From a virus: a DNA stretch of 22,583 bases. Every line of letters starts with the position of its first letter. Within the stretch, counting starts at the first letter, position 1. The DNA lies in the UHGV virus genome UHGV-1292143; one strand, written 5' to 3'. A program made the translations under genes and the position numbers. Shown here in pieces: positions 1,539 through 15,774 of the stretch. Under the pieces are notes generated by a model. That model searched no databases. It worked only from the letters and a program-made list of their open reading frames with translations, and was not told where the DNA came from.

Positions 1539-2146
<608 letters not shown>

Positions 2147-2235
2147 ATGTCATTTGTCCATTGTGCCAACTGTTATTATGGATATCATAATTCATACGAA
2201 TCGCGCTGCTACAGGATGTATAGCAACCTTAATAA

Positions 2236-3495
2236 TTATTTGAATATATCAGTTATAGTTGGGTAATTATACATCTTAAGCTTATCTCTAAATTTCATAG
2301 AAAATATAGGGTCTACCTTACATCTGTGTAAGAGCTTTGCAATCCTTAGCTCCCTCTCATTCATAATATCTTTGTATTCGCTATCAATACTTTCCTGAAT
2401 TTGCTGATTCTCAACAGGAGACGGTTTAGTAATTTTATCCCATTGATAAGTTGGCTTCGTAGTGTAATTTAAACTATCATCATTTTGGAGTAATGCCTCA
2501 AGACGAGACTTAGCATTTTCATATAGCATTCTATCTTGGGGCAACATACTTGCAACACGCATTTCCATTTCAATTTCCGATACTATCATTTCAAGTTGAC
2601 GTTTTTCCGTTTCAATAGCTAAAAGAAATGGAAATAGGGCTTCTTGCTTAATCATTTGACAATTCAAATTATTGTTTATGCCACTAAGTAATTTTGTAAA
2701 TGAGAACTTCTTTAAAGGCTGCTGATTTATAACACTCTGTCTAACTGGCATTGTGTAGTTCGGTGTTTTTTCAAGTGTTTTCTTCACTTGCTCTATAGCA
2801 ACATTAGGAGTGTTGAAAACAGTCTTTGCTGGAATACGTAGCACCATAAACCCCTCCTTTATTGAATATTCATCACGAATACGATCTCGCTCTATTTGTT
2901 CTGGGGATGAATGCCATGCTGCACCATCAATTTCTATAATTTGGCGTCCATTTACGACAAAATCAAAACGATAACGCTTATAGGGCACTTGCATTTCAAG
3001 CACTAAGTCAGGAGAAACTAACATTCCAGATTTAGGTTTAAGATTAAACTCTGCAACCATTTTACGAAGAAATGCCTCCTCAGCCGGAGATTCGCAACCT
3101 TTGCAAAATATATCAAGCCAGTTTTCTGCGTCAGCGTCAACAGTTTGCCACCATGCTAACAGTCCACGTCGGTGTCCATATAATCGTTCATCTGACGGTT
3201 TTGTTAATGGCTTTGTTAACGGTTTAACTAAGGGTTCATTTAACGGCTTTAATAACGGCTTAAATAACGGCTTATTTAACGAATTTAATAACGATTTATT
3301 TAATGGTTTGATTGACGGTCTATTTGACGACTCAATCGGTGGTTTAGATGATGATTTGTTTTTTTTATCAAAACCTACGATAGTTATATATGCTACATAT
3401 AGCATCATGCCTGCAACAGGCCATACACATGGATAAATCACGTAACACAACAGTAATAGAACAATAGTCCCAAAAAATGTTAACTTCTTCCGCAT
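2236..3495 (-). CDS. membrane-anchored protein with DUF559/Vsr-like (PD-(D/E)xK-type) endonuclease-like domain (419 aa)
   Basis: N-terminus MRKK + hydrophobic hairpin (FFGTIVLLLLCYVIYPCVW / MMLYVAYITIVGF); Pro/Lys-rich tetrapeptide repeat linker; core YRFDFVVNGRQIIEIDGAAWHSSPEQIERDRIRDEYSIKEGFMVLRIP matches the DUF559 signature (RxDF ... IEIDG..H ... D..R ... G..VLR); C-terminal ~190 aa predicted helical, unknown. Confidence 0.6.
   Translation of the reverse strand: MRKKLTFFGTIVLLLLCYVIYPCVWPVAGMMLYVAYITIVGFDKKNKSSSKPPIESSNRPSIKPLNKSLLNSLNKPLFKPLLKPLNEPLVKPLTKPLTKPSDERLYGHRRGLLAWWQTVDADAENWLDIFCKGCESPAEEAFLRKMVAEFNLKPKSGMLVSPDLVLEMQVPYKRYRFDFVVNGRQIIEIDGAAWHSSPEQIERDRIRDEYSIKEGFMVLRIPAKTVFNTPNVAIEQVKKTLEKTPNYTMPVRQSVINQQPLKKFSFTKLLSGINNNLNCQMIKQEALFPFLLAIETEKRQLEMIVSEIEMEMRVASMLPQDRMLYENAKSRLEALLQNDDSLNYTTKPTYQWDKITKPSPVENQQIQESIDSEYKDIMNERELRIAKLLHRCKVDPIFSMKFRDKLKMYNYPTITDIFK
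3195..3356 (-). repeat. about 13 imperfect tandem 12-bp units inside the 2236-3495 CDS, encoding K-P-L-x tetrapeptide repeats
   Basis: Plus-strand units such as TTAATAACGGCT / TAAATAACGGCT / TATTTAACGAAT; translated on minus strand as LNKP LFKP LLKP LNEP LVKP LTKP LTKP. Confidence 0.8.
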
Positions 3496-5218: not shown

Positions 5219-5247
5219 TTGACCTTTTAATCGTTCAGGCTTATAGT
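5219..5247 (+). promoter_or_regulatory. sigma70-type promoter for c4-icd-ant (-35 TTGACC, 17-bp spacer, -10 TATAGT)
   Basis: TTGACC at 5219-5224 and TATAGT at 5242-5247; sits downstream of the operator, as for the constitutive second promoter of P1 immI. Confidence 0.5.
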
Positions 5248-5367
5248 TCCGCCGTCGTAGCAAATTCTGCGACCGGGTTTAGCAGCCTGAATGATTGTGC
5301 GGACAGCCGCAGATATCCGATATTGCGGTATTTTTGTGTCCGTAAAACCGCGTTACGCCCAAATTAT

Positions 5368-5444
5368 GGTGGGACGTGATGGGGAGGCTTCGGCCTGCTG
5401 GTTTCACAATCGCCAGTCTGCTAACCCCGTCACGTCCTGCCACC
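5368..5444 (+). ncRNA. c4: C4-like antisense RNA (77 nt) of the immunity-I region
   Basis: GGTGGGACGTGATGGGG ... CCCCGTCACGTCCTGCCACC closes a long stem; internal hairpins AGGC-UUCG-GCCU and CUGG-UUUCACAAUCG-CCAG. Loop sequence CACAATC is complementary to GATTGTG at 5293-5299 and at 5477-5483, the latter just upstream of the icd GAGG Shine-Dalgarno (5483-5486). Confidence 0.55.
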
Positions 5445-5494
5445 TGTTTAGCAGCGGGTAGCAGGTTGTTAAACCTGATTGTGAGGCCGTAACT

Positions 5495-7740: not shown

Positions 7741-8241
7741 ATGCTGGCTAAAGTCACTTTCCTGAGCTGTATAACGATGAGCGATTTTACTTTTTCTGGC
7801 TATGAATTGGCCTGCTTTGTAACACACTCCGGTCTATCCCGTAGCGCCGGGCATATCCTGTCGCAATGTGCAAATCTCGCGGCAACAACCAGTGAATACT
7901 TCATTCACAAGCCTCACCGCCTGATCGCGGCAGAAACTGGTTATAGCCAATCAACCGTCGTTCGTGCATTCCGTGAAGCTGTAAACAAAGGAATCCTGTC
8001 TGTAGAGATTGTTATCGGCGATCACCGTGAACGTCGCGCTAACCTGTACCGGTTTACACCATCCTTTTTGGCCTTCGCACAACAAGCCAAAAATGCGCTG
8101 ACTGAAAGCAAATTAAAGATCTCTTCAGCGGCAACCAAGGTTAAAGCTGTTATCGCTAAGACATTGGCTTTATTTAATTTTATATCCACACCCCATGTCA
8201 AAATGATACCCCCTCCCCCTGTCAGGATGACGTGGCAATAA
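7741..8241 (+). CDS. repL: RepL-like lytic replication protein, N-terminal reading frame (166 aa); appears truncated by a frameshift
   Basis: Immediately follows kilA as in P1; frame ends at 8239-8241 just after a CCCCCTCCCCCT tract. Confidence 0.55.
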   Translation: MLAKVTFLSCITMSDFTFSGYELACFVTHSGLSRSAGHILSQCANLAATTSEYFIHKPHRLIAAETGYSQSTVVRAFREAVNKGILSVEIVIGDHRERRANLYRFTPSFLAFAQQAKNALTESKLKISSAATKVKAVIAKTLALFNFISTPHVKMIPPPPVRMTWQ

Positions 8242-8585
8242 AGAATAAGAAGTCACAAGTTAAAAAAACAAAAAGATCAGTTTCCGGCGGTGCCGGAACG
8301 TCCAGACTCAAAAAATTGACTTCATGGATCGCTGAGGCAAAAGCAAAGGCTGACAATCTGCGGTTATCCCAAAAACGCGCTCAAAAACATGAGTTCAAGC
8401 AGAAAGTAGAGGCGGCTGCGCGGAAATATGCTTACCTGAAGAACAAGCGTTCGCCTGATATTGGCGGGATATCAAACTTCGATAACCTACCGCATTGCAT
8501 GACGGTAAACGAAGCTCTTAATGCGGTTTTAGCCAAAAATAAAGATAACGATCAATGGGGTATACCGGCGGGATTCAGAGGGTGA
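8232..8585 (+). CDS. continuation of repL in a different frame (117 aa), or a separate small basic protein
   Basis: Frame is open from 8178 with no ATG. Restoring 1 nt would fuse it to 7741-8241 to give 281 codons, the length I recall for P1 RepL. Confidence 0.4.
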   Translation: MAIKNKKSQVKKTKRSVSGGAGTSRLKKLTSWIAEAKAKADNLRLSQKRAQKHEFKQKVEAAARKYAYLKNKRSPDIGGISNFDNLPHCMTVNEALNAVLAKNKDNDQWGIPAGFRG

Positions 8586-8799
8586 TAGATTGCTCTAATC
8601 TGGAGTCACCTGGCGTTTTCAGTATGGATTTTCTTTGGCGCGGTCTGGCCATTAGGGATCATGTTTGCTGCAACGTTTCTTCTGATGTGGGTATTCACCC
8701 TTCCAGGTGATTTCTATAGAAAAAAAGCCAGACATTGATACAATCGCTGCGGGTGCTTGAGGCTATCTGCTTCAGGCATTACCCGAAAAGCAGATAGAA

Positions 8800-8871
8800 G
8801 AAAGCCCCAGATAACATTACGCGTCCTGCAAGACGCTTAACATTAATCTGAGGCAATATCTATGCTTAGCA
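8800..8871 (-). ncRNA. possible Sok-like antisense RNA
   Basis: Minus-strand promoter-like TTGACC (8901-8906) - 18 bp - TAATCT (8877-8882); the transcript would be complementary to the mok start region at 8862. Inferred from hok/sok architecture only. Confidence 0.3.
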
Positions 8872-9068
8872 TACGTAGATTAGCCTCTTACCGACCAAAA
8901 GGTCAAGGAGAAGCAGGCTATGAAGCAGCAAAAAGCGATGTTAATCGCTCTGATCGTCATCTGTTTAACCGTCATTGTGACGGCACTGGTAACGAGGAAA
9001 GACCTCTGCGAGGTACGAATCCGAACCGGCCAGACGGAGGTCACTGTCTTCACAGCCTACGAATCTGA
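8862..9068 (+). CDS. mok-like leader ORF overlapping hok in another frame
   Basis: 68-aa ORF starting upstream of hok and overlapping it, as in hok/mok/sok loci. Confidence 0.4.
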   Translation: MLSIRRLASYRPKGQGEAGYEAAKSDVNRSDRHLFNRHCDGTGNEERPLRGTNPNRPDGGHCLHSLRI

Positions 9069-9075
9069 AAGGTAA
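8920..9075 (+). CDS. hok: Hok/Gef-family type I toxin (51 aa)
   Basis: MKQQKAMLIALIVICLTVIVTALVTRKDLCEVRIRTGQTEVTVFTAYESER: N-terminal transmembrane helix plus conserved TRKDLCEV and FTAYE motifs; AAGGAG Shine-Dalgarno 9 nt upstream. Confidence 0.85.
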   Translation: MKQQKAMLIALIVICLTVIVTALVTRKDLCEVRIRTGQTEVTVFTAYESER

Positions 9076-9097
9076 GAGACCTGGCGGGGAGAGATCC

Positions 9098-10435
9098 CAT
9101 AAGCGCTAACTTAAGGGTTGAACCATCTGAAGAATGCGACGCCTCGGTGCCTCGTTAAGACGATGCCTCGCGTTCTTCAATTGCGTTTTGTAGGCTGTCA
9201 GGGATACTGTCCCACGAATGGCCACCTGTAAGCTCCAGATGACCATTTTTGTTATTCTCCACAACGAGTTAGTTCTTCTTTTCGGATCCGGCACTTCTGG
9301 GGGGGAAATCCAGCGATGGCTGGATTATGTCGTCAATTAAAAATGCGGCGAGTAGATTAGCAAATATCCACGCTTTCGCGAGTTCAGGTTCCTTTGCACG
9401 CAAAGCATCCAGGTGCAGCAAACTTTTGAGCCGCTTAAAAGCCAGTTCAATTTGCCATCGCAGACGGTAACAATCAGCCACTTGCTCTGCTGAATATTCA
9501 TCTTCCGGTAATGATGTTAGCAATAGCACATGGCCCGCTGCTTCCAGCGTTTCCGCCTGAACTACTCGTCCTTTTCGACGATTCTCGCTGAGCAGTCGGG
9601 TTTTACTGATTAATGCTTTTTCGGGAGGAAGTGATACGGCAATGAGACGTGCCGGAAAGGGAGCTCCGGCTTTTTTATTACCTGAATTGCCTATCATTAC
9701 AGTGGTTTCACCGTTCTTACCGCAATCCAGCCCGCGCAGAAAACCCATCATGTCAAAGCGCATTCCTTCTGCAGTTAACCAGCGCAATCCTCGCCAGTGA
9801 ACCCGGACGATATAATCAGCTTCTCCAAAAGCAAGTGAGCGGATACATTCGGGACGCGAACCGAATCCCCGGTCAGCAATGCGTATCTCGTCTGCCGTTT
9901 GCGCAAATCGGTCCAGCCGTTCAGCGTCTCTGCTGTCGGTTAGCTCAAAATCAGTGAACTGACAGGTATGAGGATCATATCCCATATGTAGTCGCCATTC
10001 AGCGCTGCCGCCCCCGGGCGCACTGATTGCTGTTCCATCGACAAGACGCAATCTCTTTCCGCTTGTACAACCCGTAACTGCGGCGCGTACAGCAAGTGTT
10101 TGTGCGGCAAGTATGCCAAACCAGTCGGCGGCATTCCGCAGCCGCTTCAGGAGAGCCACGTCAGATAATGTTGCAACGTCATGGAGCTGAGCCCATGCAG
10201 TGACTTCACGTAATGACATCCCCCCGGGCCGTAAGCCAGCCCCAGACGTAGCAGAGTTGCAGCATCACGAATTTCGCGGCGGCGGGTTAGAGCCCCGGCA
10301 TTACGTGCCGAAGTATCCAGTTCTTCGGGCTTACCAATATGGGCCAGAATTGCTGACCAGTTATCGTGAGAGTAATTCATCGGCACGTTAAATCATATCA
10401 GGCGTAATACCACAACCCTTAAGTTAGCGCTTATG
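9098..10435 (-). mobile_element. IS186-like insertion sequence (IS4 family), 1338 bp, with a 10-bp target duplication
   Basis: Perfect 23-bp terminal inverted repeats CATAAGCGCTAACTTAAGGGTTG; flanking direct repeat GGAGAGATCC (9088-9097 and 10436-10445) within a GGGG-N-CCCC target, typical for IS186. Confidence 0.85.
9269..10386 (-). pseudogene. IS186 transposase, split by a -1 frameshift in a G-run
   Basis: N-terminal 56 aa (MPMNYSHDNW...GPGG) and the 316-aa DDE body (MSLREV...YRLRWQIELAFKRLK) are in different frames. The junction is a C6 run at 10220-10225 (G6 on the coding strand); restoring one G makes a continuous ~372-codon ORF. Confidence 0.7.
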
Positions 10436-10491
10436 GGAGAGATCCCCGCCACTCTTCGTGTGTCAGGTATCCTCAATGCACCCTTTCCTCT

Positions 10492-10522
10492 CCAAATAAA
10501 AAAGCTCCCGAAGGAGCTTTAA
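10492..10522 (-). terminator. rho-independent terminator ending the minus-strand late operon
   Basis: Minus strand reads AAAGCTCC-TTCG-GGAGCTTT followed by TTTTTATTT, immediately after the stop of the 10540-11049 gene. Confidence 0.6.
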
Positions 10523-10539
10523 AATACAAGGGATGACTC

Positions 10540-11049
10540 TTAATCCCACTCAATCCAGTTGTAGACGATACGAAGTGACGGGCGCACAGCGGCAGTCACA
10601 TCTTCGGTACTAAAGTCGATTGCATCACTGTAGATTTTGCAGTCCAACATTTCAATTGTTGTAGCAGCTTTTGTCACAGCGTTAACCCCGGAAGCTTTGG
10701 ATTCAGGGGTAGCAGCCATCGTGATATCAACATAGTCCTTCGCCGCAATGCGATCCTTAATGAACTGAAGAATATCGCCTTCGATAGTCTCCACGCACTG
10801 GACCTGGATTTCCCCAGAGTTTCGAATTGCTCCGTGCTGGTTGAACTTCACACCATTCGGACCATAGTCCTCCACATCCTCTCGAGTCATTTCAGGGATT
10901 TGCGACGTGCGAACCAGTACGCTGATATCTTCATGGCCTGCAAAAGTGAGCTGGAATTCAGAAGATACCAGTCGTTCGCCTTTGGCCGCGTTGGCAGTAT
11001 AGCGGCCCTTAATAAATTTACGGTTTCCCTTAGTGTTATTGTGCCCCAT
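10540..11049 (-). CDS. phage tail tube-like protein (169 aa)
   Basis: Pattern resembles T4 gp19-family tube proteins (FQLTF... ; C-terminal LRIVYNWIEWD versus gp19 ...LALDYWE); AAGGA Shine-Dalgarno. Assignment from memory. Confidence 0.5.
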   Translation of the reverse strand: MGHNNTKGNRKFIKGRYTANAAKGERLVSSEFQLTFAGHEDISVLVRTSQIPEMTREDVEDYGPNGVKFNQHGAIRNSGEIQVQCVETIEGDILQFIKDRIAAKDYVDITMAATPESKASGVNAVTKAATTIEMLDCKIYSDAIDFSTEDVTAAVRPSLRIVYNWIEWD

Positions 11050-11060
11050 ATAAAATCCTT

Positions 11061-11642
11061 TTACTGGAACGCCCGAACAATATCGGAGCTGTTATATATC
11101 GAAGAACCGGTCAACTGGAGGTTGACGGTGTTTTTCAGGAAATATCCATTACTGTCCCTTGGCGCATCGAGATCAAAACTTAAGTCCTGGATGGCGACAT
11201 CGGTGATGTTGATCCGGCGACCAATGTTTAGCGTCACGCGCTCCGGGATTCGACCACCAACATTGGCCGCTTTTAGTTCCGGGCTAATCATGGCTGTCAA
11301 CGCGGCGATAGCGCCTGAAACTTCAATGAATGGATTGTTCAAAGCAATGAAAGTTACAGGCAGCGTGAACGTCGGCGGAGTCCCCCCTTCCCAAACCATT
11401 AAGCTATTCCAACGGGCAACCGACGTTGTTTCAGTACCTACTTGCACAAAACCACCCAGAGCACCAGAAACAGATCCCATGGACATACCGGTAAACGGCG
11501 CTTCCCAATTCTGGGCCATGTTCATTGCCGCTCCCTGGCTGATATATCCGGTAACCTGGTACTGAGAGTTCGTTAAAGTAACTTTCAGATATGGCGATAC
11601 ACCGTCAGCCTGGCTGTAAACCCCATAAGCTATAGGAGCCAT
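11061..11642 (-). CDS. phage late/virion protein of unknown function (193 aa)
   Basis: ORF in the late operon; start preceded by a GC hairpin rather than a canonical Shine-Dalgarno. Confidence 0.6.
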   Translation of the reverse strand: MAPIAYGVYSQADGVSPYLKVTLTNSQYQVTGYISQGAAMNMAQNWEAPFTGMSMGSVSGALGGFVQVGTETTSVARWNSLMVWEGGTPPTFTLPVTFIALNNPFIEVSGAIAALTAMISPELKAANVGGRIPERVTLNIGRRINITDVAIQDLSFDLDAPRDSNGYFLKNTVNLQLTGSSIYNSSDIVRAFQ

Positions 11643-11652
11643 TCAAGTTAAA

Positions 11653-11670
11653 GGCCGGAGTTCTCCGGCC
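11653..11670 (-). promoter_or_regulatory. GC-rich hairpin between the acidic-protein gene and the 193-aa gene
   Basis: GGCCGGAG / CTCCGGCC stem; on the minus strand it lies between an AGGAGG motif and the ATG at 11642. Confidence 0.4.
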
Positions 11671-11677
11671 TCCTCCT

Positions 11678-12493
11678 TTAGCCAAGGCGCTTACGGCGCA
11701 GTTTCATTGACTTTTTGCGGGCAAGTTTTGCCGCGCCGGTCTGGGCTTTTCGACGCACTTTTTTCAGCGCCGATTTTTGAGCCGCAGTCAGACGTTTTTT
11801 ACGCAGGCGTTTACGGATGAGTTTGATCTCACCGTTACGAACAACCTTCTTAAATGCTTCAGTCAGCATTTCATCAGAAGTGCCAGCAACAACAAACGCC
11901 GCTTCCAGTTCGTCGCGGTCGTCGCTATCTAAACCAGCGATAGAGGCACCAACATCAGCAGCTGCGTCGTCGTCTTCATCGTCAGCCAGTGCTTCGATCA
12001 GGTCATCATCTACACCGCATGCTGCGAGGAAGTTAGCAACATTTGCCCATGCTTCGTTATAGGCATCGTCCTGTTCTTCTGTAACTTCGGAGTCGTCGTC
12101 ATCAGAGATACCAGCGATAGCCTGAACGAAACCATCAAGGGAGTCGAAAGTCAGATCACCGCTATCAGCCCAGGCGAAAACGGCGTCGGCCGCATCACTC
12201 AACGCATTCTGCATAGCACTTCGATTTGCAGCTTCCAGAATCATCTGGTGCGCCTGTTCGACGGTCCATTCTTTACCGTCTTTCCCTTCCAGGATTTGCT
12301 CAGGAGCCGTGGCAGATGGAGCGTTATCGTTAGTCTGTGCCGCCGGTTCCGGATTATTATTAATAACCGGATCTGTTGTCGGTTCGGCGCTTGCTCGGGC
12401 AGACTCCATCAACTGCACAAGATCAGAGTTCAAAGCGAAACGAGACAGTCCATTCCCCAAAAATACCCCGGATTGAAAAAAGTTTTTGCTCAT
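11678..12493 (-). CDS. very acidic protein with a strongly basic C-terminal tail (271 aa); possible scaffold or internal virion protein
   Basis: D/E-rich body (many DDDD runs) and C-terminal KLIRKRLRKKRL...RRKRLG; AAGGA Shine-Dalgarno 7 nt upstream; starts 10 nt after the stop of 12503-14008. Confidence 0.65.
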   Translation of the reverse strand: MSKNFFQSGVFLGNGLSRFALNSDLVQLMESARASAEPTTDPVINNNPEPAAQTNDNAPSATAPEQILEGKDGKEWTVEQAHQMILEAANRSAMQNALSDAADAVFAWADSGDLTFDSLDGFVQAIAGISDDDDSEVTEEQDDAYNEAWANVANFLAACGVDDDLIEALADDEDDDAAADVGASIAGLDSDDRDELEAAFVVAGTSDEMLTEAFKKVVRNGEIKLIRKRLRKKRLTAAQKSALKKVRRKAQTGAAKLARKKSMKLRRKRLG

Positions 12494-12502
12494 TGTATTT
12501 CC

Positions 12503-14008
12503 TTACTTAATAAGCAGCGGTACGCCCTGGATACGACGGGCTACGCCAGTCGGGCAGCAGGCCCAGACTACTTCCCATTTATCGAATTCCGCCTGCGTAA
12601 CTTTCAGCACATACGGTTCTGTACCGTCAGCATCAGGATCACGAGGAGCCACCAGAGCGCCGGAGGCGACAAAGCGATCCAAAAGTTTGGTCATCCCTTT
12701 AGTCAGGCCAGACTCAGTAATGCCGTCCGGGTTATGCTTCATCTGTCGGGCTAACTGGACAAAGAAACGGCTGATTGCGTTCATCAGGGATGGGACGTGC
12801 TGGAAATGCAGATAGTTGTCCTGCGTGCAGCAAGTTAAAGCATCATCGATGATCATCTGGCCCGAAGTACCTACAGATACTTTATTGAGTCGGCCCTTGA
12901 CCATAGCTTCTTCGTCCGGGGTGTCTTCAGGATACAGCGGCTGAAGTGATGCACGAGCAATGACGGCACGTTCTTCACCAGCCGGTGAGTAATGCCAACC
13001 GCCGACATCGGAGTTTTTCTTGACGCCACGAGCTTTCGCCGCATACGCCGCGCCAGACAGACCGAAGACCACGCGGGATTGGGTCCATTTGTCTTTGCAG
13101 GAGAACGGGAAATGATAGACAGCACAGCTTACATAATCGGTACCAAGTAAACCGGTATCTTCAACAGCAGAGATCGCCGCATTGTCATAGCAACCCAGGC
13201 CGAGAACAGCGGTGTGCATGTACGGCGCATTGTTCAGCACTTTCACCGCACGCAGGTAAGCAGCAGTGGAAATGTTCGACTGATCGCCGTTGGTACCGCC
13301 AGTGAACGCCAGCGATTTTTTATTTGTTACTTTCGCCGTCGAAATCAGCTCTTCATTAACAACCGCGCGCAGATATTTAGAACGGGCTTCCAGAGCCGTA
13401 GGCAGATAACACAAGCGGCCCATGTCATCTTTCGCTTCTTCCGCCAAAGACACAGTGTGTGTCTCCAGGGTCGTTACCACACCGAGCGAAGTCGTCTGGG
13501 TCAGTTTTAAGAGGAAGCGTTCATTACCCGCGCTGTCCGCTGTTGCCGTTTCGATGGTTAACTCACGGGTAGGAGAAATACACGGATCACCATCATCAAC
13601 GTAGATAGCAAAGGCTTCGCCGCTATCAAGTTCAATTTCAGAACCGTATGGCAACGCACTGTAAGCCGGTTCGCCTGATTCATCGAACATAATAATCGGG
13701 AACTTCGCATCATCCGGAACAGCACGGACAACATAACCAGACGTTTGCTGAATAGCTTCGTACACATGGCGAATTGGTTCGAACTGTGAGCCGGAGGACG
13801 GCTTCAGCGGTTCGCCGAGAACATCTTCGTAATTGGACTCAGTAACCGCAAGAACAGTAAACGGCTTGCCACGCGCAAATACGCCAATACCAGCCCACAA
13901 GCTGCTATTTAATGCAACACCGGTAGATAACGTCGCATCGGCATTGATCGGGCTAACAGCGACACCGGATGCATTACCTAATGACTGTTGAATTGAATAT
14001 TGAGACAT
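12503..14008 (-). CDS. large late structural protein (501 aa), possibly tail sheath
   Basis: Size and position between the head-precursor gene and tube-like genes; function is inferred from gene order only. Confidence 0.5.
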   Translation of the reverse strand: MSQYSIQQSLGNASGVAVSPINADATLSTGVALNSSLWAGIGVFARGKPFTVLAVTESNYEDVLGEPLKPSSGSQFEPIRHVYEAIQQTSGYVVRAVPDDAKFPIIMFDESGEPAYSALPYGSEIELDSGEAFAIYVDDGDPCISPTRELTIETATADSAGNERFLLKLTQTTSLGVVTTLETHTVSLAEEAKDDMGRLCYLPTALEARSKYLRAVVNEELISTAKVTNKKSLAFTGGTNGDQSNISTAAYLRAVKVLNNAPYMHTAVLGLGCYDNAAISAVEDTGLLGTDYVSCAVYHFPFSCKDKWTQSRVVFGLSGAAYAAKARGVKKNSDVGGWHYSPAGEERAVIARASLQPLYPEDTPDEEAMVKGRLNKVSVGTSGQMIIDDALTCCTQDNYLHFQHVPSLMNAISRFFVQLARQMKHNPDGITESGLTKGMTKLLDRFVASGALVAPRDPDADGTEPYVLKVTQAEFDKWEVVWACCPTGVARRIQGVPLLIK

Positions 14009-14023
14009 AACTTTCCCTGTTAT

Positions 14024-14041
14024 GCGCCCCGCACGGGGCGC
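14024..14041 (-). promoter_or_regulatory. perfect 8-bp GC stem hairpin between the head-precursor and sheath-like genes
   Basis: GCGCCCCG / CGGGGCGC with no downstream U-run; likely an mRNA-stability or attenuation element rather than a full terminator. Confidence 0.4.
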
Positions 14042-14067
14042 TATGTTAAACGGAGAACTTCCCCTGA

Positions 14068-15774
14068 TTACTCAGAGTCACCGGCATCAATCGTGTCGCT
14101 GCTTATAAAGTTAAGCCCGCCTTTTTTGGCCATTGTCAGCGTTACACGAGTGAAGTAATCAGCGCCGTTGCGTGGGTGCATATCGTTGATAGCCGAACCC
14201 CACAGCGTGGTACGGTTGACCAGCACCGGAGTGGTCGGATGCTGGAACGGGATGGCCGGGACAGCATCACCAGTCACGAAGCCTGCTTTACCCGGATTTT
14301 CATCACGGACGTAGCACAGCACATCCATCGAGCTGAACTGAATGTTCTCTGTCGTTAAGTTCTTACAAATACCAGCAGGTACTTCGTACACTTTCACGTT
14401 ACCGAACAGGGTACCGATGTAGTGAACATACGGAGTCTGGATATAGTCTTCGGCTGGCTGGAAGAAATCCTTCGGCAACTGTTTGAAGAAAGATGCTGCA
14501 TCAGCACCAGCAAACATCCCCATCGCACCAGAAGATTTAACGCGCTCAATAATGTCGCGATATACAGTCTGGAATTTGCCACGAATGATGGTTGCCCATA
14601 CATCAAAGGACTGGTTAACCGGCAGAGCGATGTCAAAGGTGTCGGTCGCAAGAGTACGCCAGATCATGATGCGAAGACGCAGCATATCCTGTTCATGAGA
14701 CAGGTATTCCTTCAGGGTGCGGAACTGTAGGGAACCCAGGTCCAGACCAAATTCACGCTGTGCTACATACGCCGCCTGTACCGTGTGCTCAGCCGCGATA
14801 ACGAACTGACTTGGGAACAGGGTGTATTTCTTCATTTCGTGGTTGATCAGCGGGATCAGCTCAGGAGCGGCTTCAATATTGATTTCCGTCTCAATTGCGA
14901 TCTCAGTGCCTTTATCCGGCGCTTTGGAGAACGACAGGGCAATCTGACCAATGTTGTAGTTCAGAGAGCAGGTAACAGTGATTTGCTCACCAGCAGCATT
15001 AGTAAACGAGTGAAGTAGGCTGCCGGAACCGTTATCAACAACAGACTTAATACGGTTAACGTAGATGTTAGTGCGACCTTTTCGGATTGGTACATTCTGG
15101 CCTTCGAAGTCTTCCATCTTGAAGGTTGCGGTTTTGCTGGTGCCATCGGAGCTTGCCACCAGCACATAGCGGCGACGTAACTGGCTGTACACACCGACGG
15201 ATTGCATGTCCAGAACATCACCAGCAGCATAAGAACCAAAAGATGAACCTGCCACGTTAAAGACTTCATAGATGTCGGACTGGTCACGCGTAACCGGAAT
15301 GAAGGTACACGCATCAGCGGTAGCTGCCCCCAACTGAACAGGCAGGATCATCGCGAGGAATAAAGGCAGACGCATAACACCGTCAGAAACGCTCATCATC
15401 TCTGCTGCGACGGATTCCAGCATCGCTTTATTAGTGGCATCCATGCTATTGCGGGTGGACTCAATCAGGCAGTTTTCCAGCGTCTGGTGGCAGGAGGCCA
15501 GAATTTCCGGACGCGGCATAGATTTATGTGCTGCGGCGTAGTCAGCCAGTGCACTTGCCCACGCTGTAGCGATTTGAGCGGTGGCATTATCAGAGATACC
15601 CGCAAAAACCGGGTCTTTACGTGCAGCTTCAAGGATAGATGCGGCACGCGCGGCATCATCTTTAATGAATTGGTTATCAGTACCGAACTGCGCAGTGCTT
15701 GCCCAGCCAAGCACAGCTTTAGAGCGTTTTGCGATATCTGCAATACGATTCTGGTATTCGCGTAAGTTACTCAA
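14068..15774 (-). CDS. major head protein precursor (P1 gp23-like) with helical N-terminal delta-like domain (about 568 aa)
   Basis: N-terminal ~150 aa are helical/Ala-rich, then a large beta-rich body. Probable TTG start at 15772-15774 with AAGGAAGAG Shine-Dalgarno; the track start at 15795 has none. Sits next to parS/parB as I recall for P1 gene 23. Confidence 0.55.
   Translation of the reverse strand: MSNLREYQNRIADIAKRSKAVLGWASTAQFGTDNQFIKDDAARAASILEAARKDPVFAGISDNATAQIATAWASALADYAAAHKSMPRPEILASCHQTLENCLIESTRNSMDATNKAMLESVAAEMMSVSDGVMRLPLFLAMILPVQLGAATADACTFIPVTRDQSDIYEVFNVAGSSFGSYAAGDVLDMQSVGVYSQLRRRYVLVASSDGTSKTATFKMEDFEGQNVPIRKGRTNIYVNRIKSVVDNGSGSLLHSFTNAAGEQITVTCSLNYNIGQIALSFSKAPDKGTEIAIETEINIEAAPELIPLINHEMKKYTLFPSQFVIAAEHTVQAAYVAQREFGLDLGSLQFRTLKEYLSHEQDMLRLRIMIWRTLATDTFDIALPVNQSFDVWATIIRGKFQTVYRDIIERVKSSGAMGMFAGADAASFFKQLPKDFFQPAEDYIQTPYVHYIGTLFGNVKVYEVPAGICKNLTTENIQFSSMDVLCYVRDENPGKAGFVTGDAVPAIPFQHPTTPVLVNRTTLWGSAINDMHPRNGADYFTRVTLTMAKKGGLNFISSDTIDAGDSE

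What the first reader, a model, noticed from the sequence alone, without database searches (positions are those of the whole stretch)
8862..10445. hok/mok type I toxin locus with IS186 inserted 22 bp past the hok stop
A Hok/Gef-family toxin gene with overlapping mok frame is followed almost immediately by a complete IS186 with a 10-bp target duplication. In hok mRNAs the 3' end is needed for the fold-back regulation that makes killing post-segregational, so an insertion here should uncouple or inactivate the system, echoing the insertion-inactivated chromosomal hok loci of E. coli. Hok-type loci are not part of the canonical P1 backbone as I remember it.
Basis: partly seen in the sequence, partly recalled or inferred. 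Interest (0 to 1): 0.55.

Follow-up and report, generated by a model that had tools for sequence, protein, structure and literature searches.

The report
IS186-split hok/sok toxin locus
A small plasmid-addiction toxin gene (hok/sok) carried by a P1-like phage-plasmid has been cut off from its 3' control elements by the insertion sequence IS186, at the same hairpin hot spot IS186 hit in the E. coli K-12 chromosomal hok genes; it is a real but largely familiar case.

Summary
A 1338-bp IS186 lies at 9098-10435 with 23-bp perfect inverted repeats. A 10-bp duplication, GGAGAGATCC, flanks it, and it starts 22 bp after the hok stop.

IS-free alleles in other P1-like phages and plasmids match the reconstructed empty site. 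The IS sits inside a GC hairpin (GGCGGGGA-GAGA-UCCCCGCC), which is a perfect IS186 target (GGGG-N6-CCCC).

The insertion splits the stem-loop that in R1 hok protects the active mRNA. It also moves the fold-back element (fbi, 10471-10483) and the terminator 1.35 kb away. The reconstructed mRNA pairs its 5' end with the fbi (P = 0.99); chimeric transcripts do not.

K-12 hokC::IS186A is at the homologous position, also 22 bp from the stop and in the same orientation. hokE::IS186B lies in the same hairpin, inverted.

In PLSDB, about 227 plasmids keep this hok intact. About 161 carry this junction and 34 carry IS186 at the same site in the opposite orientation, so the site is a recurrent hot spot.

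Canonical P1 has rlfA-rlfB-pmgF in this slot. The same IS186 insertion was already noted in pSvP1, without the link to hok. Loss of post-segregational killing is inferred, not tested. This is a new member of a known kind, of modest interest.

The parts
8717..8744 (+). Putative hok promoter: -35 TAGAAA, 16-nt spacer, TG-extended -10 TACAAT, just upstream of the mRNA 5' end
   Evidence: Consensus scan, 9 of 12 matches with TG. The position relative to the conserved 5' end GGGTGCTTGAGG is shared with homologues. Function is inferred.
8751..8762 (+). hok mRNA 5' end, the tac element GGGUGCUUGAGG
   Evidence: Start of the Rfam RF01794 match. Conserved in all homologues aligned. Pairs with 10471-10483 in the reconstructed mRNA.
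8751..8925 (+). hok mRNA leader, carrying the mok Shine-Dalgarno sequence and the Sok target; matches the Rfam 'sok' family
   Evidence: RF01794, 114.3 bits, E = 1.1e-25.
8788..8870 (-). Predicted Sok antisense RNA. Its promoter is -35 TTGACC at 8906-8901 and -10 TAATCT at 8882-8877. The RNA covers the mok start and Shine-Dalgarno sequence, then forms a long stem-loop followed by GGGGCUUUCUUCU
   Evidence: Placed by homology with the annotated K-12 sokC, which begins 8 nt inside mokC. The antisense sequence folds to -34.7 kcal/mol. The ends are approximate and inferred.
8862..9068 (+). mok (modulator of killing) reading frame, 68 aa, overlapping hok
   Evidence: ORF list and translation. The arrangement matches mokC/hokC in K-12.
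8920..9075 (+). hok toxin gene, 51 aa; RefSeq calls it HokD-type
   Evidence: Pfam PF01848, E = 2.4e-22. RefSeq product 'type I toxin-antitoxin system toxin HokD' in identical plasmid copies.
9083..9097 (+). 5' arm of the split GC hairpin (GGCGGGGA...) together with the left copy of the 10-bp target duplication (9088-9097)
9098..10435 (-). IS186, 1338 bp. The transposase is read on the minus strand, towards hok, and is split into ORFs 10386-10147 and 10219-9269 by a 1-bp deletion at 10226-10228
   Evidence: 99.9% identical to K-12 IS186A. DDE_Tnp_1 and the IS4-family model match. Frameshift located.
10436..10450 (+). Right copy of the target duplication (10436-10445) together with the 3' arm of the hairpin (CCGCC)
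10471..10483 (+). Displaced fold-back inhibition element (fbi) CCUCAAUGCACCC, complementary to the mRNA 5' end
   Evidence: Duplex and minimum-free-energy pairing. Conserved in homologues as CCTCAA(C/T)GCACCC. Same layout as R1-type hok.
10501..10520 (.). Terminator hairpin AAAGCTCCCGAAGGAGCTTT. It was formerly the end of the hok transcript and still lies directly behind the convergent gene bplB (10540-11049, minus strand)
   Evidence: Terminator-like site on the minus strand. Hairpin present in the reconstructed mRNA fold.

Best explanation
The window is a P1-like phage-plasmid. Its variable slot between repL and bplB holds a hok/mok/sok type I toxin-antitoxin cassette where canonical P1 has rlfA-rlfB-pmgF.

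IS186 transposed into its preferred target, GGGG-N6-CCCC, making the usual 10-bp duplication. That target is the GC stem-loop lying 7-27 nt after the hok stop codon.

The insertion leaves the hok promoter, the leader, mok, hok and the antisense Sok gene untouched. It does two things to the hok transcript. It destroys the terminal stem-loop that shields the processed, translatable mRNA from 3' exonucleases. It also removes the fbi element and the terminator, which now lie 1.35 kb downstream.

As a result, hok transcripts run into IS186 and cannot form the 5'-3' fold-back that normally stores the mRNA as a long-lived, untranslatable, Sok-resistant pool. With no such pool left to outlive Sok after plasmid loss, and with an unprotected 3' end, the cassette should no longer kill plasmid-free segregants. 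What remains is a disarmed toxin gene still covered by its antitoxin RNA.

Shown here: the anatomy, the empty-site alleles, the target match, loss of the predicted end-pairing, and the recurrence of the event. Inferred: the transcript fate and the loss of post-segregational killing.
For: - Anatomy and duplication.
- Empty-site alleles match the window minus the IS and one duplication copy, with no gap at the former insertion point (99-99.5% identical over ~630 bp). PLSDB holds 227 plasmids with the intact site.
- Folding: the minimum-free-energy structure of the reconstructed mRNA pairs nt 1-12 with 10471-10483, and the ensemble probability is 0.99. Chimeric hok-IS186 transcripts ending at nine different points mostly fold the 5' end locally, exactly as the fbi-less mRNA does (P <= 0.07 in eight of the nine; 0.42 for an end at 9400).
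- Homology: the hairpin and fbi are conserved in homologous hok loci and are laid out as in R1-type hok.
- Experimental precedent in R1 hok: 19 of 22 loss-of-function 3'-UTR substitutions break a C-G pair of this terminal stem, and the truncated mRNA then disappears (PMC9841398). The tac/fbi mechanism is summarised in the same paper.
- Chromosomal parallel: K-12 hokC::IS186A has the same position, spacing and orientation; hokE::IS186B is in the same hairpin, inverted.
- Target rule: all IS186 targets examined are GGGG-N6-CCCC with a GG-N6-CC duplication.
- Recurrence: 161 plasmids and 190 of 5426 complete E. coli genomes carry this junction. Another 34 plasmids carry IS186 at the same nucleotide in the opposite orientation, with different IS-internal polymorphisms and a different flanking haplotype.
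- For K-12 gef (= hokC), IS186 is reported to disrupt the fbi and normal processing (PMC3562002).
Against: - There are no RNA or phenotype data for this allele.
- The same secondary source reports that K-12 gef, with the identical IS186 orientation, is still transcribed and regulated by its antisense RNA, with the mRNA ending inside the IS. The transcript therefore exists and may keep some activity.
- Thermodynamic folding showed no difference in predicted accessibility of the mok Shine-Dalgarno sequence between intact and chimeric RNAs (0.17 in both). The predicted translational state is thus not resolved in silico.
- One arbitrary 3' end (9400) gave partial pairing of the 5' end with IS sequence (P = 0.42).
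- The hok ORF stays intact in every IS-bearing copy inspected. That is compatible with recent insertion but also with retained function.
- IS-free chromosomal hok loci are reported not to mediate post-segregational killing anyway (bioRxiv 10.1101/2025.08.07.668861). The intact plasmid allele may therefore never have been a killer.
Confidence: 0.78

Rival explanations
1. The cassette is still a working, regulated toxin-antitoxin system. The hok transcript acquires a new 3' end inside IS186, remains stable enough, and Sok still controls it. Killing, or some other role such as phage exclusion or stress response, is retained or only retuned.
For: - K-12 gef with the same IS186 orientation is reported as transcribed, regulated by Sof RNA, and terminating inside the IS about 200 bp past the stop (PMC3562002).
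- An imperfect hairpin followed by a T-run lies at about 9219-9256 on the + strand, and a terminator-like site lies at 9651-9670.
- The promoter, mok, hok and sok are unchanged relative to intact alleles: 100% identity over 427 nt to NZ_CP089136.
- hok ORFs are intact in all IS-bearing copies checked.
Against: - The fold-back partner is absent from any transcript ending inside the IS.
- Single C-G disruptions of the homologous terminal stem abolish R1 hok toxicity, and here the whole stem is split.
- From my recollection of Pedersen and Gerdes 1999, which I could not retrieve, the K-12 IS-bearing loci were regarded as inactivated.
Confidence: 0.14
2. Same molecular lesion, but the high frequency is adaptive rather than a mutational hot-spot effect. 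On this view, disarming hok while keeping Sok is selected in phage-plasmids. Possible reasons are removal of a costly or abortive-infection-like toxin, or provision of Sok as an anti-addiction immunity against related hok loci.
For: - About 46% of this hok allele in PLSDB is IS-disrupted (161 + 34 against 227 intact).
- There were at least two independent hits.
- The Sok gene and promoter are always retained.
- The lineage persists even with a dead transposase.
Against: - IS186 target specificity alone predicts recurrent hits, and in this window the reconstructed hairpin is the only GGGG-N3-7-CCCC motif.
- PLSDB counts are inflated by clonal redundancy.
- No fitness data exist.
Confidence: 0.1
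3. The hok-IS186 junction was imported by recombination with a chromosomal hokC::IS186 locus rather than made by transposition into the plasmid. Alternatively, it is an assembly artefact.
For: Identical spacing (22 bp) and orientation to K-12 hokC::IS186A.
Against: - Both flanks match the plasmid's own empty-site allele, with no gap at the insertion point, and carry a perfect 10-bp duplication, GGAGAGATCC. hokC has GGAGTGATCC and many substitutions in hok.
- The junction is present in more than 160 independently assembled plasmids.
Confidence: 0.02

Closest known systems
E. coli K-12 hokC (gef)/sokC with IS186A, and hokE/sokE with IS186B (chromosomal hok loci described by Pedersen and Gerdes 1999; that paper is cited from memory)
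   Same: - Hok/Gef toxin with an overlapping mok and an antisense Sok.
- IS186 inside the homologous GC hairpin, 22 bp (hokC) or 21 bp (hokE) after the stop.
- 10-bp GG-N6-CC duplication.
- hokC has the same IS orientation as the window.
- The fbi is left on the far side of the IS.
   Different: - The window's locus is on a P1-like phage-plasmid, not the chromosome.
- The toxin is HokD/RelF-like; the nucleotide alignment with hokC shows many substitutions.
- The leader has an extra 16-18-nt hairpin.
- The duplication sequence differs (GGAGAGATCC against GGAGTGATCC), so this is an independent event.
- This IS copy has a frameshifted transposase.
hok/sok (parB) of plasmid R1
   Same: - Same gene layout and the same order of RNA elements: 5' tac, mok, hok, a GC stem-loop just after the stop, fbi, terminator.
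- 5'-3' end pairing is predicted in both.
- The mechanism is taken from this system.
   Different: - R1 hok is intact and is a proven post-segregational killer.
- Its hairpin, GGCGGGCGCAGGCCCGCC, lacks the GGGG-N6-CCCC IS186 target.
- The window's copy has lost the stem-loop and the fbi from the transcript.
IS186B insertion in the P1-like plasmid pSvP1 (Venturini et al. 2019, PMC6906374)
   Same: Same element and same 10-bp direct repeat: GGATCTCTCC is the reverse complement of GGAGAGATCC. [quoted passage not shown]
   Different: That paper does not identify the toxin as hok or discuss the hok mRNA. It attributes the absence of rlfA-rlfB-pmgF to the IS. IS-free relatives also lack those genes and the duplication is intact, so the substitution predates the IS.
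[quoted passage not shown] 2001; cited through PMC3045373)
   Same: Repeated spontaneous insertion at a single site in either orientation. The lon upstream region carries GGGGGAAACATCCCC, the same motif class as the hok hairpin.
   Different: The insertion there knocks down a promoter. Here it severs a 3' UTR.

Membership tests
[quoted passage not shown] | Small hydrophobic Hok/Gef toxin (Pfam PF01848) | tested here: met
   E = 2.4e-22, 78.7 bits against a cut-off of 22. The NCBIfam Hok subfamily model hits at 49.5 bits, below its cut-off of 73. RefSeq names identical copies HokD.
[quoted passage not shown] | Overlapping upstream mok reading frame to which hok translation is coupled | tested here: met
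   ORF 8862-9068 overlaps hok 8920-9075 in a different frame, as mokC/hokC do. The coupling itself is not testable here.
[quoted passage not shown] | cis-encoded antisense Sok RNA across the mok start, and a conserved leader | tested here: met
   Rfam RF01794, 114.3 bits. Antisense promoter-like TTGACC-18-TAATCT and a stem-loop of -34.7 kcal/mol. Expression was not tested.
[quoted passage not shown] | 5' tac paired with 3' fbi in the full-length mRNA (fold-back inhibition) | tested here: not met
   Met only in the reconstructed pre-insertion mRNA (P = 0.99). In the window as it stands the fbi is 1348 bp further away and is absent from transcripts that end within the IS.
[quoted passage not shown] | GC-rich terminal stem-loop just after the hok stop that stabilises the processed mRNA | tested here: not met
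   The stem GGCGGGGA/UCCCCGCC is split between 9083-9097 and 10446-10450. Its importance comes from R1 data.
[quoted passage not shown] | Post-segregational killing or plasmid stabilisation | not testable with these tools
   Needs stability and rifampicin assays.
IS186 (IS4 family) | Near-identity to the reference IS186, with 23-bp terminal inverted repeats | tested here: met
   99.925% over 1339 bp to K-12 IS186A; inverted repeats perfect for 23 bp.
IS186 (IS4 family) | 10-bp duplication in a GGGG-N6-CCCC target | tested here: met
   The restored target is cgGGGGAGAGATCCCCg. The pattern is the same at hokC and at IS186C, where both flanks were read; the hokE left flank fits it; and the same motif lies upstream of lon.
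IS186 (IS4 family) | Intact DDE transposase of 370 aa | tested here: not met
   A 1-bp deletion splits it into 79 and 316 aa. Sister plasmids carry an intact 1339-bp copy.
P1-like phage-plasmid (Punavirus, IncY) | P1 gene order immI(c4)-kilA-repL ... bplB-pmgG-21-22-23-par-rep | tested here: met
   C4 RNA and its a1b1 targets. 97.6% identity of repL to P1. Flanks match P1-like phages and IncY plasmids.

The most novel reading that the evidence does not exclude
The conserved GC stem-loop behind HokC/D/E-type hok genes acts as a built-in IS186 landing pad, and its repeated use is selected. On this reading, IS186 converts a killer module into a Sok-only 'anti-addiction' or immunity module, or removes a toxin that harms the phage-plasmid's lytic or plasmid life. 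That would explain why almost half of the P1-type hok alleles in public plasmids are disrupted at one nucleotide, in both orientations, while Sok and the hok ORF are always kept.
Probability: 0.1. Interest if true: 0.55.

Novelty: new member of a known kind. Interest (0 to 1): 0.3.

Why it matters
The result shows that the IS186 lesion known from the K-12 chromosomal hok genes is not a laboratory-strain oddity. It recurs on a widespread family of P1-like phage-plasmids, many of which carry resistance genes, at the same nucleotide and in both orientations.

It has practical consequences. Annotation pipelines label these copies 'HokD toxin', and surveys count them as stability modules. About half are probably non-functional, which matters for predicting plasmid persistence.

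It also corrects a published reading in which the IS was said to have deleted rlfA-rlfB-pmgF.

Finally, the collection offers natural matched pairs of alleles with and without the IS. These would allow a test of what the hok 3' stem-loop and fbi contribute outside plasmid R1.

Tried and rejected
- **IS186 consensus-target paper.** SaiSree et al. 2001 (PMC95536) is not held, and a text search for the consensus returned only noise. I derived the target rule from the sequences themselves instead.
- **Pedersen and Gerdes 1999.** The paper could not be retrieved, so statements from it are marked as memory. A secondary summary was used.
- **Predicting translation state.** I tried to read it from the unpaired probability of the mok Shine-Dalgarno sequence. 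It was 0.16-0.17 in all constructs, so equilibrium folding does not resolve the open/closed switch.
- **Covariation test for tac/fbi.** The available homologues are invariant at both elements apart from one G-C to G-U change in hokC. They offer conservation but no covariation.
- **Mapping R1 positions G345 and C358.** The R1-type copy I retrieved has leader indels that shift the numbering by a few nucleotides. The assignment to the GC stem therefore rests on it being the only C-G stem in that stretch.
- **Frameshifts as sequencing errors.** I considered whether the IS and repL frameshifts were homopolymer errors. This was rejected because they are shared by plasmids sequenced in different laboratories, while sister lineages have the intact runs.
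- **Import from the chromosome.** Recombinational import of the hokC::IS186 junction was considered and rejected.
- **Counts.** The first empty-site query (427 nt) could not separate intact from disrupted alleles at the 80% coverage threshold. Shorter junction-spanning queries were used instead.
Full report
**What is there**

The window is a P1-like phage-plasmid. It carries the immI C4 antisense RNA and its a1b1 targets. It also carries kilA, repL (97.6% identical to P1 repL), bplB, pmgG and genes 21-23. Its flanks match Punavirus genomes and IncY plasmids.

Within the finding's coordinates I confirm the following:
- A Hok/Gef toxin ORF at 8920-9075 (51 aa; Pfam PF01848, E = 2.4e-22).
- An overlapping mok frame at 8862-9068.
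- A leader matching Rfam 'sok' RF01794 at 8751-8925 (114.3 bits).
- An IS186 at 9098-10435 with 23-bp perfect inverted repeats, flanked by the 10-bp direct repeat GGAGAGATCC (9088-9097 and 10436-10445).
- Exactly 22 nt between the hok TAA and the IS.

The IS is 99.9% identical to K-12 IS186A.

**The insertion is real and the pre-insertion allele exists**

Deleting the IS and one repeat copy gives a sequence that aligns with no gap at the former insertion point to the hok region of phage phi456 and of 'Punavirus P1' MH422554 (99-99.5% identical over ~630 bp). It is 100% identical over 427 nt to plasmid NZ_CP089136.

Canonical P1 (NC_005856) has rlfA, rlfB and pmgF between repL and bplB, and no hok. 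The hok cassette is therefore an accessory substitution in a subset of P1-like elements. The IS came later.

Venturini et al. 2019 recorded the same IS186B, with the direct repeat GGATCTCTCC (the reverse complement), in pSvP1. They called the neighbour an 'antibacterial toxin' and blamed the IS for the loss of rlfA-rlfB-pmgF (PMC6906374). The intact duplication and the IS-free relatives show that the substitution predates the IS.

**What the IS hit**

The restored site reads GGTAA-GAGACCT-GGCGGGGA-GAGA-TCCCCGCC-ACTCTTCGTGTGTCAGGTAT-CCTCAATGCACCC-...-terminator.

The 8-9-bp GC stem-loop begins 7 nt after the stop. The IS lies in its loop and 3' arm.

The sequence CCUCAAUGCACCC (10471-10483) is the complement of the mRNA 5' end GGGUGCUUGAGG (8751-8762). 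In the minimum-free-energy structure of the reconstructed 427-nt mRNA the two ends pair. In the ensemble, nt 1-12 pair with the downstream region at probability 0.99.

The 5' end, the hairpin and the fbi are conserved in hok loci of Rac-type and other prophages and in reconstructed K-12 hokC. An R1-type hok locus shows the same order: stop, GC hairpin, fbi, terminator, with end-pairing.

The mechanism known from R1 is as follows. The tac/fbi stem keeps the full-length mRNA closed, untranslated and refractory to Sok. Slow 3' processing removes the fbi, after which the RNA refolds, becomes translatable and binds Sok (PMC9841398).

In the same study, 19 of 22 loss-of-function substitutions in the 3' UTR broke a C-G pair of the terminal stem of the truncated mRNA. 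That RNA then disappeared, which was ascribed to 3'-5' exoribonucleases.

The IS in this window therefore removes both 3' determinants from the transcript.

**Predicted consequence**

I folded chimeric transcripts (hok plus IS186 sequence) ending at nine positions between 9097 and 9682. They fold nt 1-12 locally onto nt 20-34, exactly as the reconstructed mRNA does once the fbi is cut off. Long-range pairing is at most 0.07, except for an arbitrary end at 9400, where it is 0.42.

The stable, inert mRNA reservoir that post-segregational killing depends on should therefore not form, and the 3' end is unprotected. The promoter, mok, hok and the predicted Sok gene lie upstream of the IS and are unchanged. 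The Sok gene has -35 TTGACC at 8906-8901 and -10 TAATCT at 8882-8877, and the RNA spans roughly 8870 to 8788 on the minus strand.

I conclude that this is a disarmed toxin gene still covered by its antitoxin. This step is inference.

Three caveats apply:
- A secondary source states that K-12 gef, which has IS186 in the same orientation, is still transcribed. It is regulated by its antisense RNA and terminates inside the IS (PMC3562002).
- Equilibrium folding did not show a change in accessibility of the mok Shine-Dalgarno sequence.
- Even IS-free chromosomal hok loci are reported not to give post-segregational killing.

**Comparison with the known cases**

K-12 hokC::IS186A has 22 nt (GAGCAACGGCGGGGAGTGATCC) between the stop and the IS. 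It has the same IS orientation as the window, the duplication GGAGTGATCC, and its fbi (CTTCAACGCACCC) beyond the IS.

hokE::IS186B has 21 nt between the stop and the IS, with the IS in the opposite orientation. The differing duplication and the many hok substitutions show an independent event rather than an imported junction.

Every IS186 target I could inspect is GGGG-N6-CCCC with a GG-N6-CC duplication:
- the window;
- hokC;
- IS186C, in the nupC terminator.

The lon-promoter hot-spot region carries GGGGGAAACATCCCC. That hot spot is known to be hit at one site in either orientation (PMC3045373, citing SaiSree 2001).

The restored hairpin is the only such motif in the 22.6-kb window. The R1 hok hairpin, GGCGGGCGCAGGCCCGCC, lacks it.

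**Recurrence**

- The window's junction occurs in 161 PLSDB plasmids and in 190 of 5426 complete E. coli genomes.
- A 160-nt probe spanning the intact site finds 227 plasmids.
- A synthetic junction with the IS flipped finds 34 plasmids at 100% identity.

One of the flipped copies (NZ_CP081715) has the same 10-bp duplication. It has different IS-internal polymorphisms and a different flanking haplotype, and it lacks the window's frameshift. There were therefore at least two independent insertions.

Among same-orientation copies there are two sub-lineages:
- One sub-lineage matches the window. It has Hok Met7, a frameshifted transposase and a frameshifted repL. Examples are pLR-25_1 and a Cronobacter plasmid; pTetA_020022 is annotated with both frameshifts.
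- The other sub-lineage has Hok Ile7 and an intact 1339-bp IS. Upstream it has IS3 or IS30 remnants in place of repL. Examples are pMRE162, pHFQ1 and plasmid C of strain S30.

The counts use 80% coverage thresholds on a redundant database and are approximate.

**Verdict**

The kind of event is known: IS186 in the 3' hairpin of hok. This particular insertion has been catalogued before, without being understood.

What is new, and modest:
- the link to the hok mRNA elements;
- the demonstration that the plasmid site is a recurrent, bidirectional hot spot;
- the estimate that about 46% of this hok allele in public plasmids is disrupted.

I could find no paper making this link.

Noticed in passing
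window 7741-8585 (frameshift at 8187-8197): repL, the lytic-replication initiator that contains oriL, is split into 166-aa and 117-aa ORFs by a 1-bp deletion in a C5 run relative to P1 and phi456. The same frameshift is annotated in pTetA_020022 and pLR-25_1, and the deletion is present in the pLR-25_1 and Cronobacter pCrono684-2 sequences I checked. It is therefore a real lineage marker, and the lytic replicon is probably defective.
   Followed up: partly
window 10217-10231 (GGG at 10226-10228): The IS186 transposase is frameshifted by a 1-bp deletion and leaves ORFs of 79 and 316 aa. Sister plasmids with the same insertion carry an intact 1339-bp IS. This copy is therefore probably immobile unless complemented in trans.
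   Followed up: yes
L014 (NZ_CP081715.1) 1901-3238, and 33 further PLSDB plasmids: IS186 at the identical nucleotide with the identical 10-bp duplication, but in the opposite orientation. The IS-internal polymorphisms and the flanking SNPs differ, so this is an independent hit on the same hairpin.
   Followed up: yes
window 9058-9061: The Hok Tyr47 codon TAC is followed by G, giving a TACG motif of the kind edited A-to-I by TadA in hokB and reportedly in hokC, hokD and hokE. Editing there would recode Tyr to Cys (bioRxiv 10.1101/2025.08.07.668861; coordinates).
   Followed up: no
window about 8819-8836: The hok leader carries an extra 16-18-nt hairpin (GCGTCCTGCAAGACGC) that is absent from K-12 hokC and appears as an insertion relative to the Rfam sok model. 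On the antisense strand it lengthens the predicted Sok stem-loop. It is shared with Rac-type and lambdoid prophage hok loci.
   Followed up: partly
window 8586-8750: The left boundary of the hok cassette. Homology to phi456 and MH422554 starts only at about 8621. RefSeq annotates a truncated 'membrane domain protein' remnant in the corresponding stretch of pTetA_020022. The repL-hok junction thus differs between P1-like elements.
   Followed up: no
window 5241-5293 and 5362-5447: The P1 immI elements, C4 antisense RNA and its a1b1 target, are present and score above the Rfam gathering thresholds. These are ordinary P1 immunity features.
   Followed up: no
L006 (pTetA_020022) 10790-14754: A close relative of the window carries an IS3-family element interrupted by a group II intron (ltrA), just beyond the IS186 where the window has an intact bplB-pmgG. 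The region is a repeated target for mobile elements.
   Followed up: no
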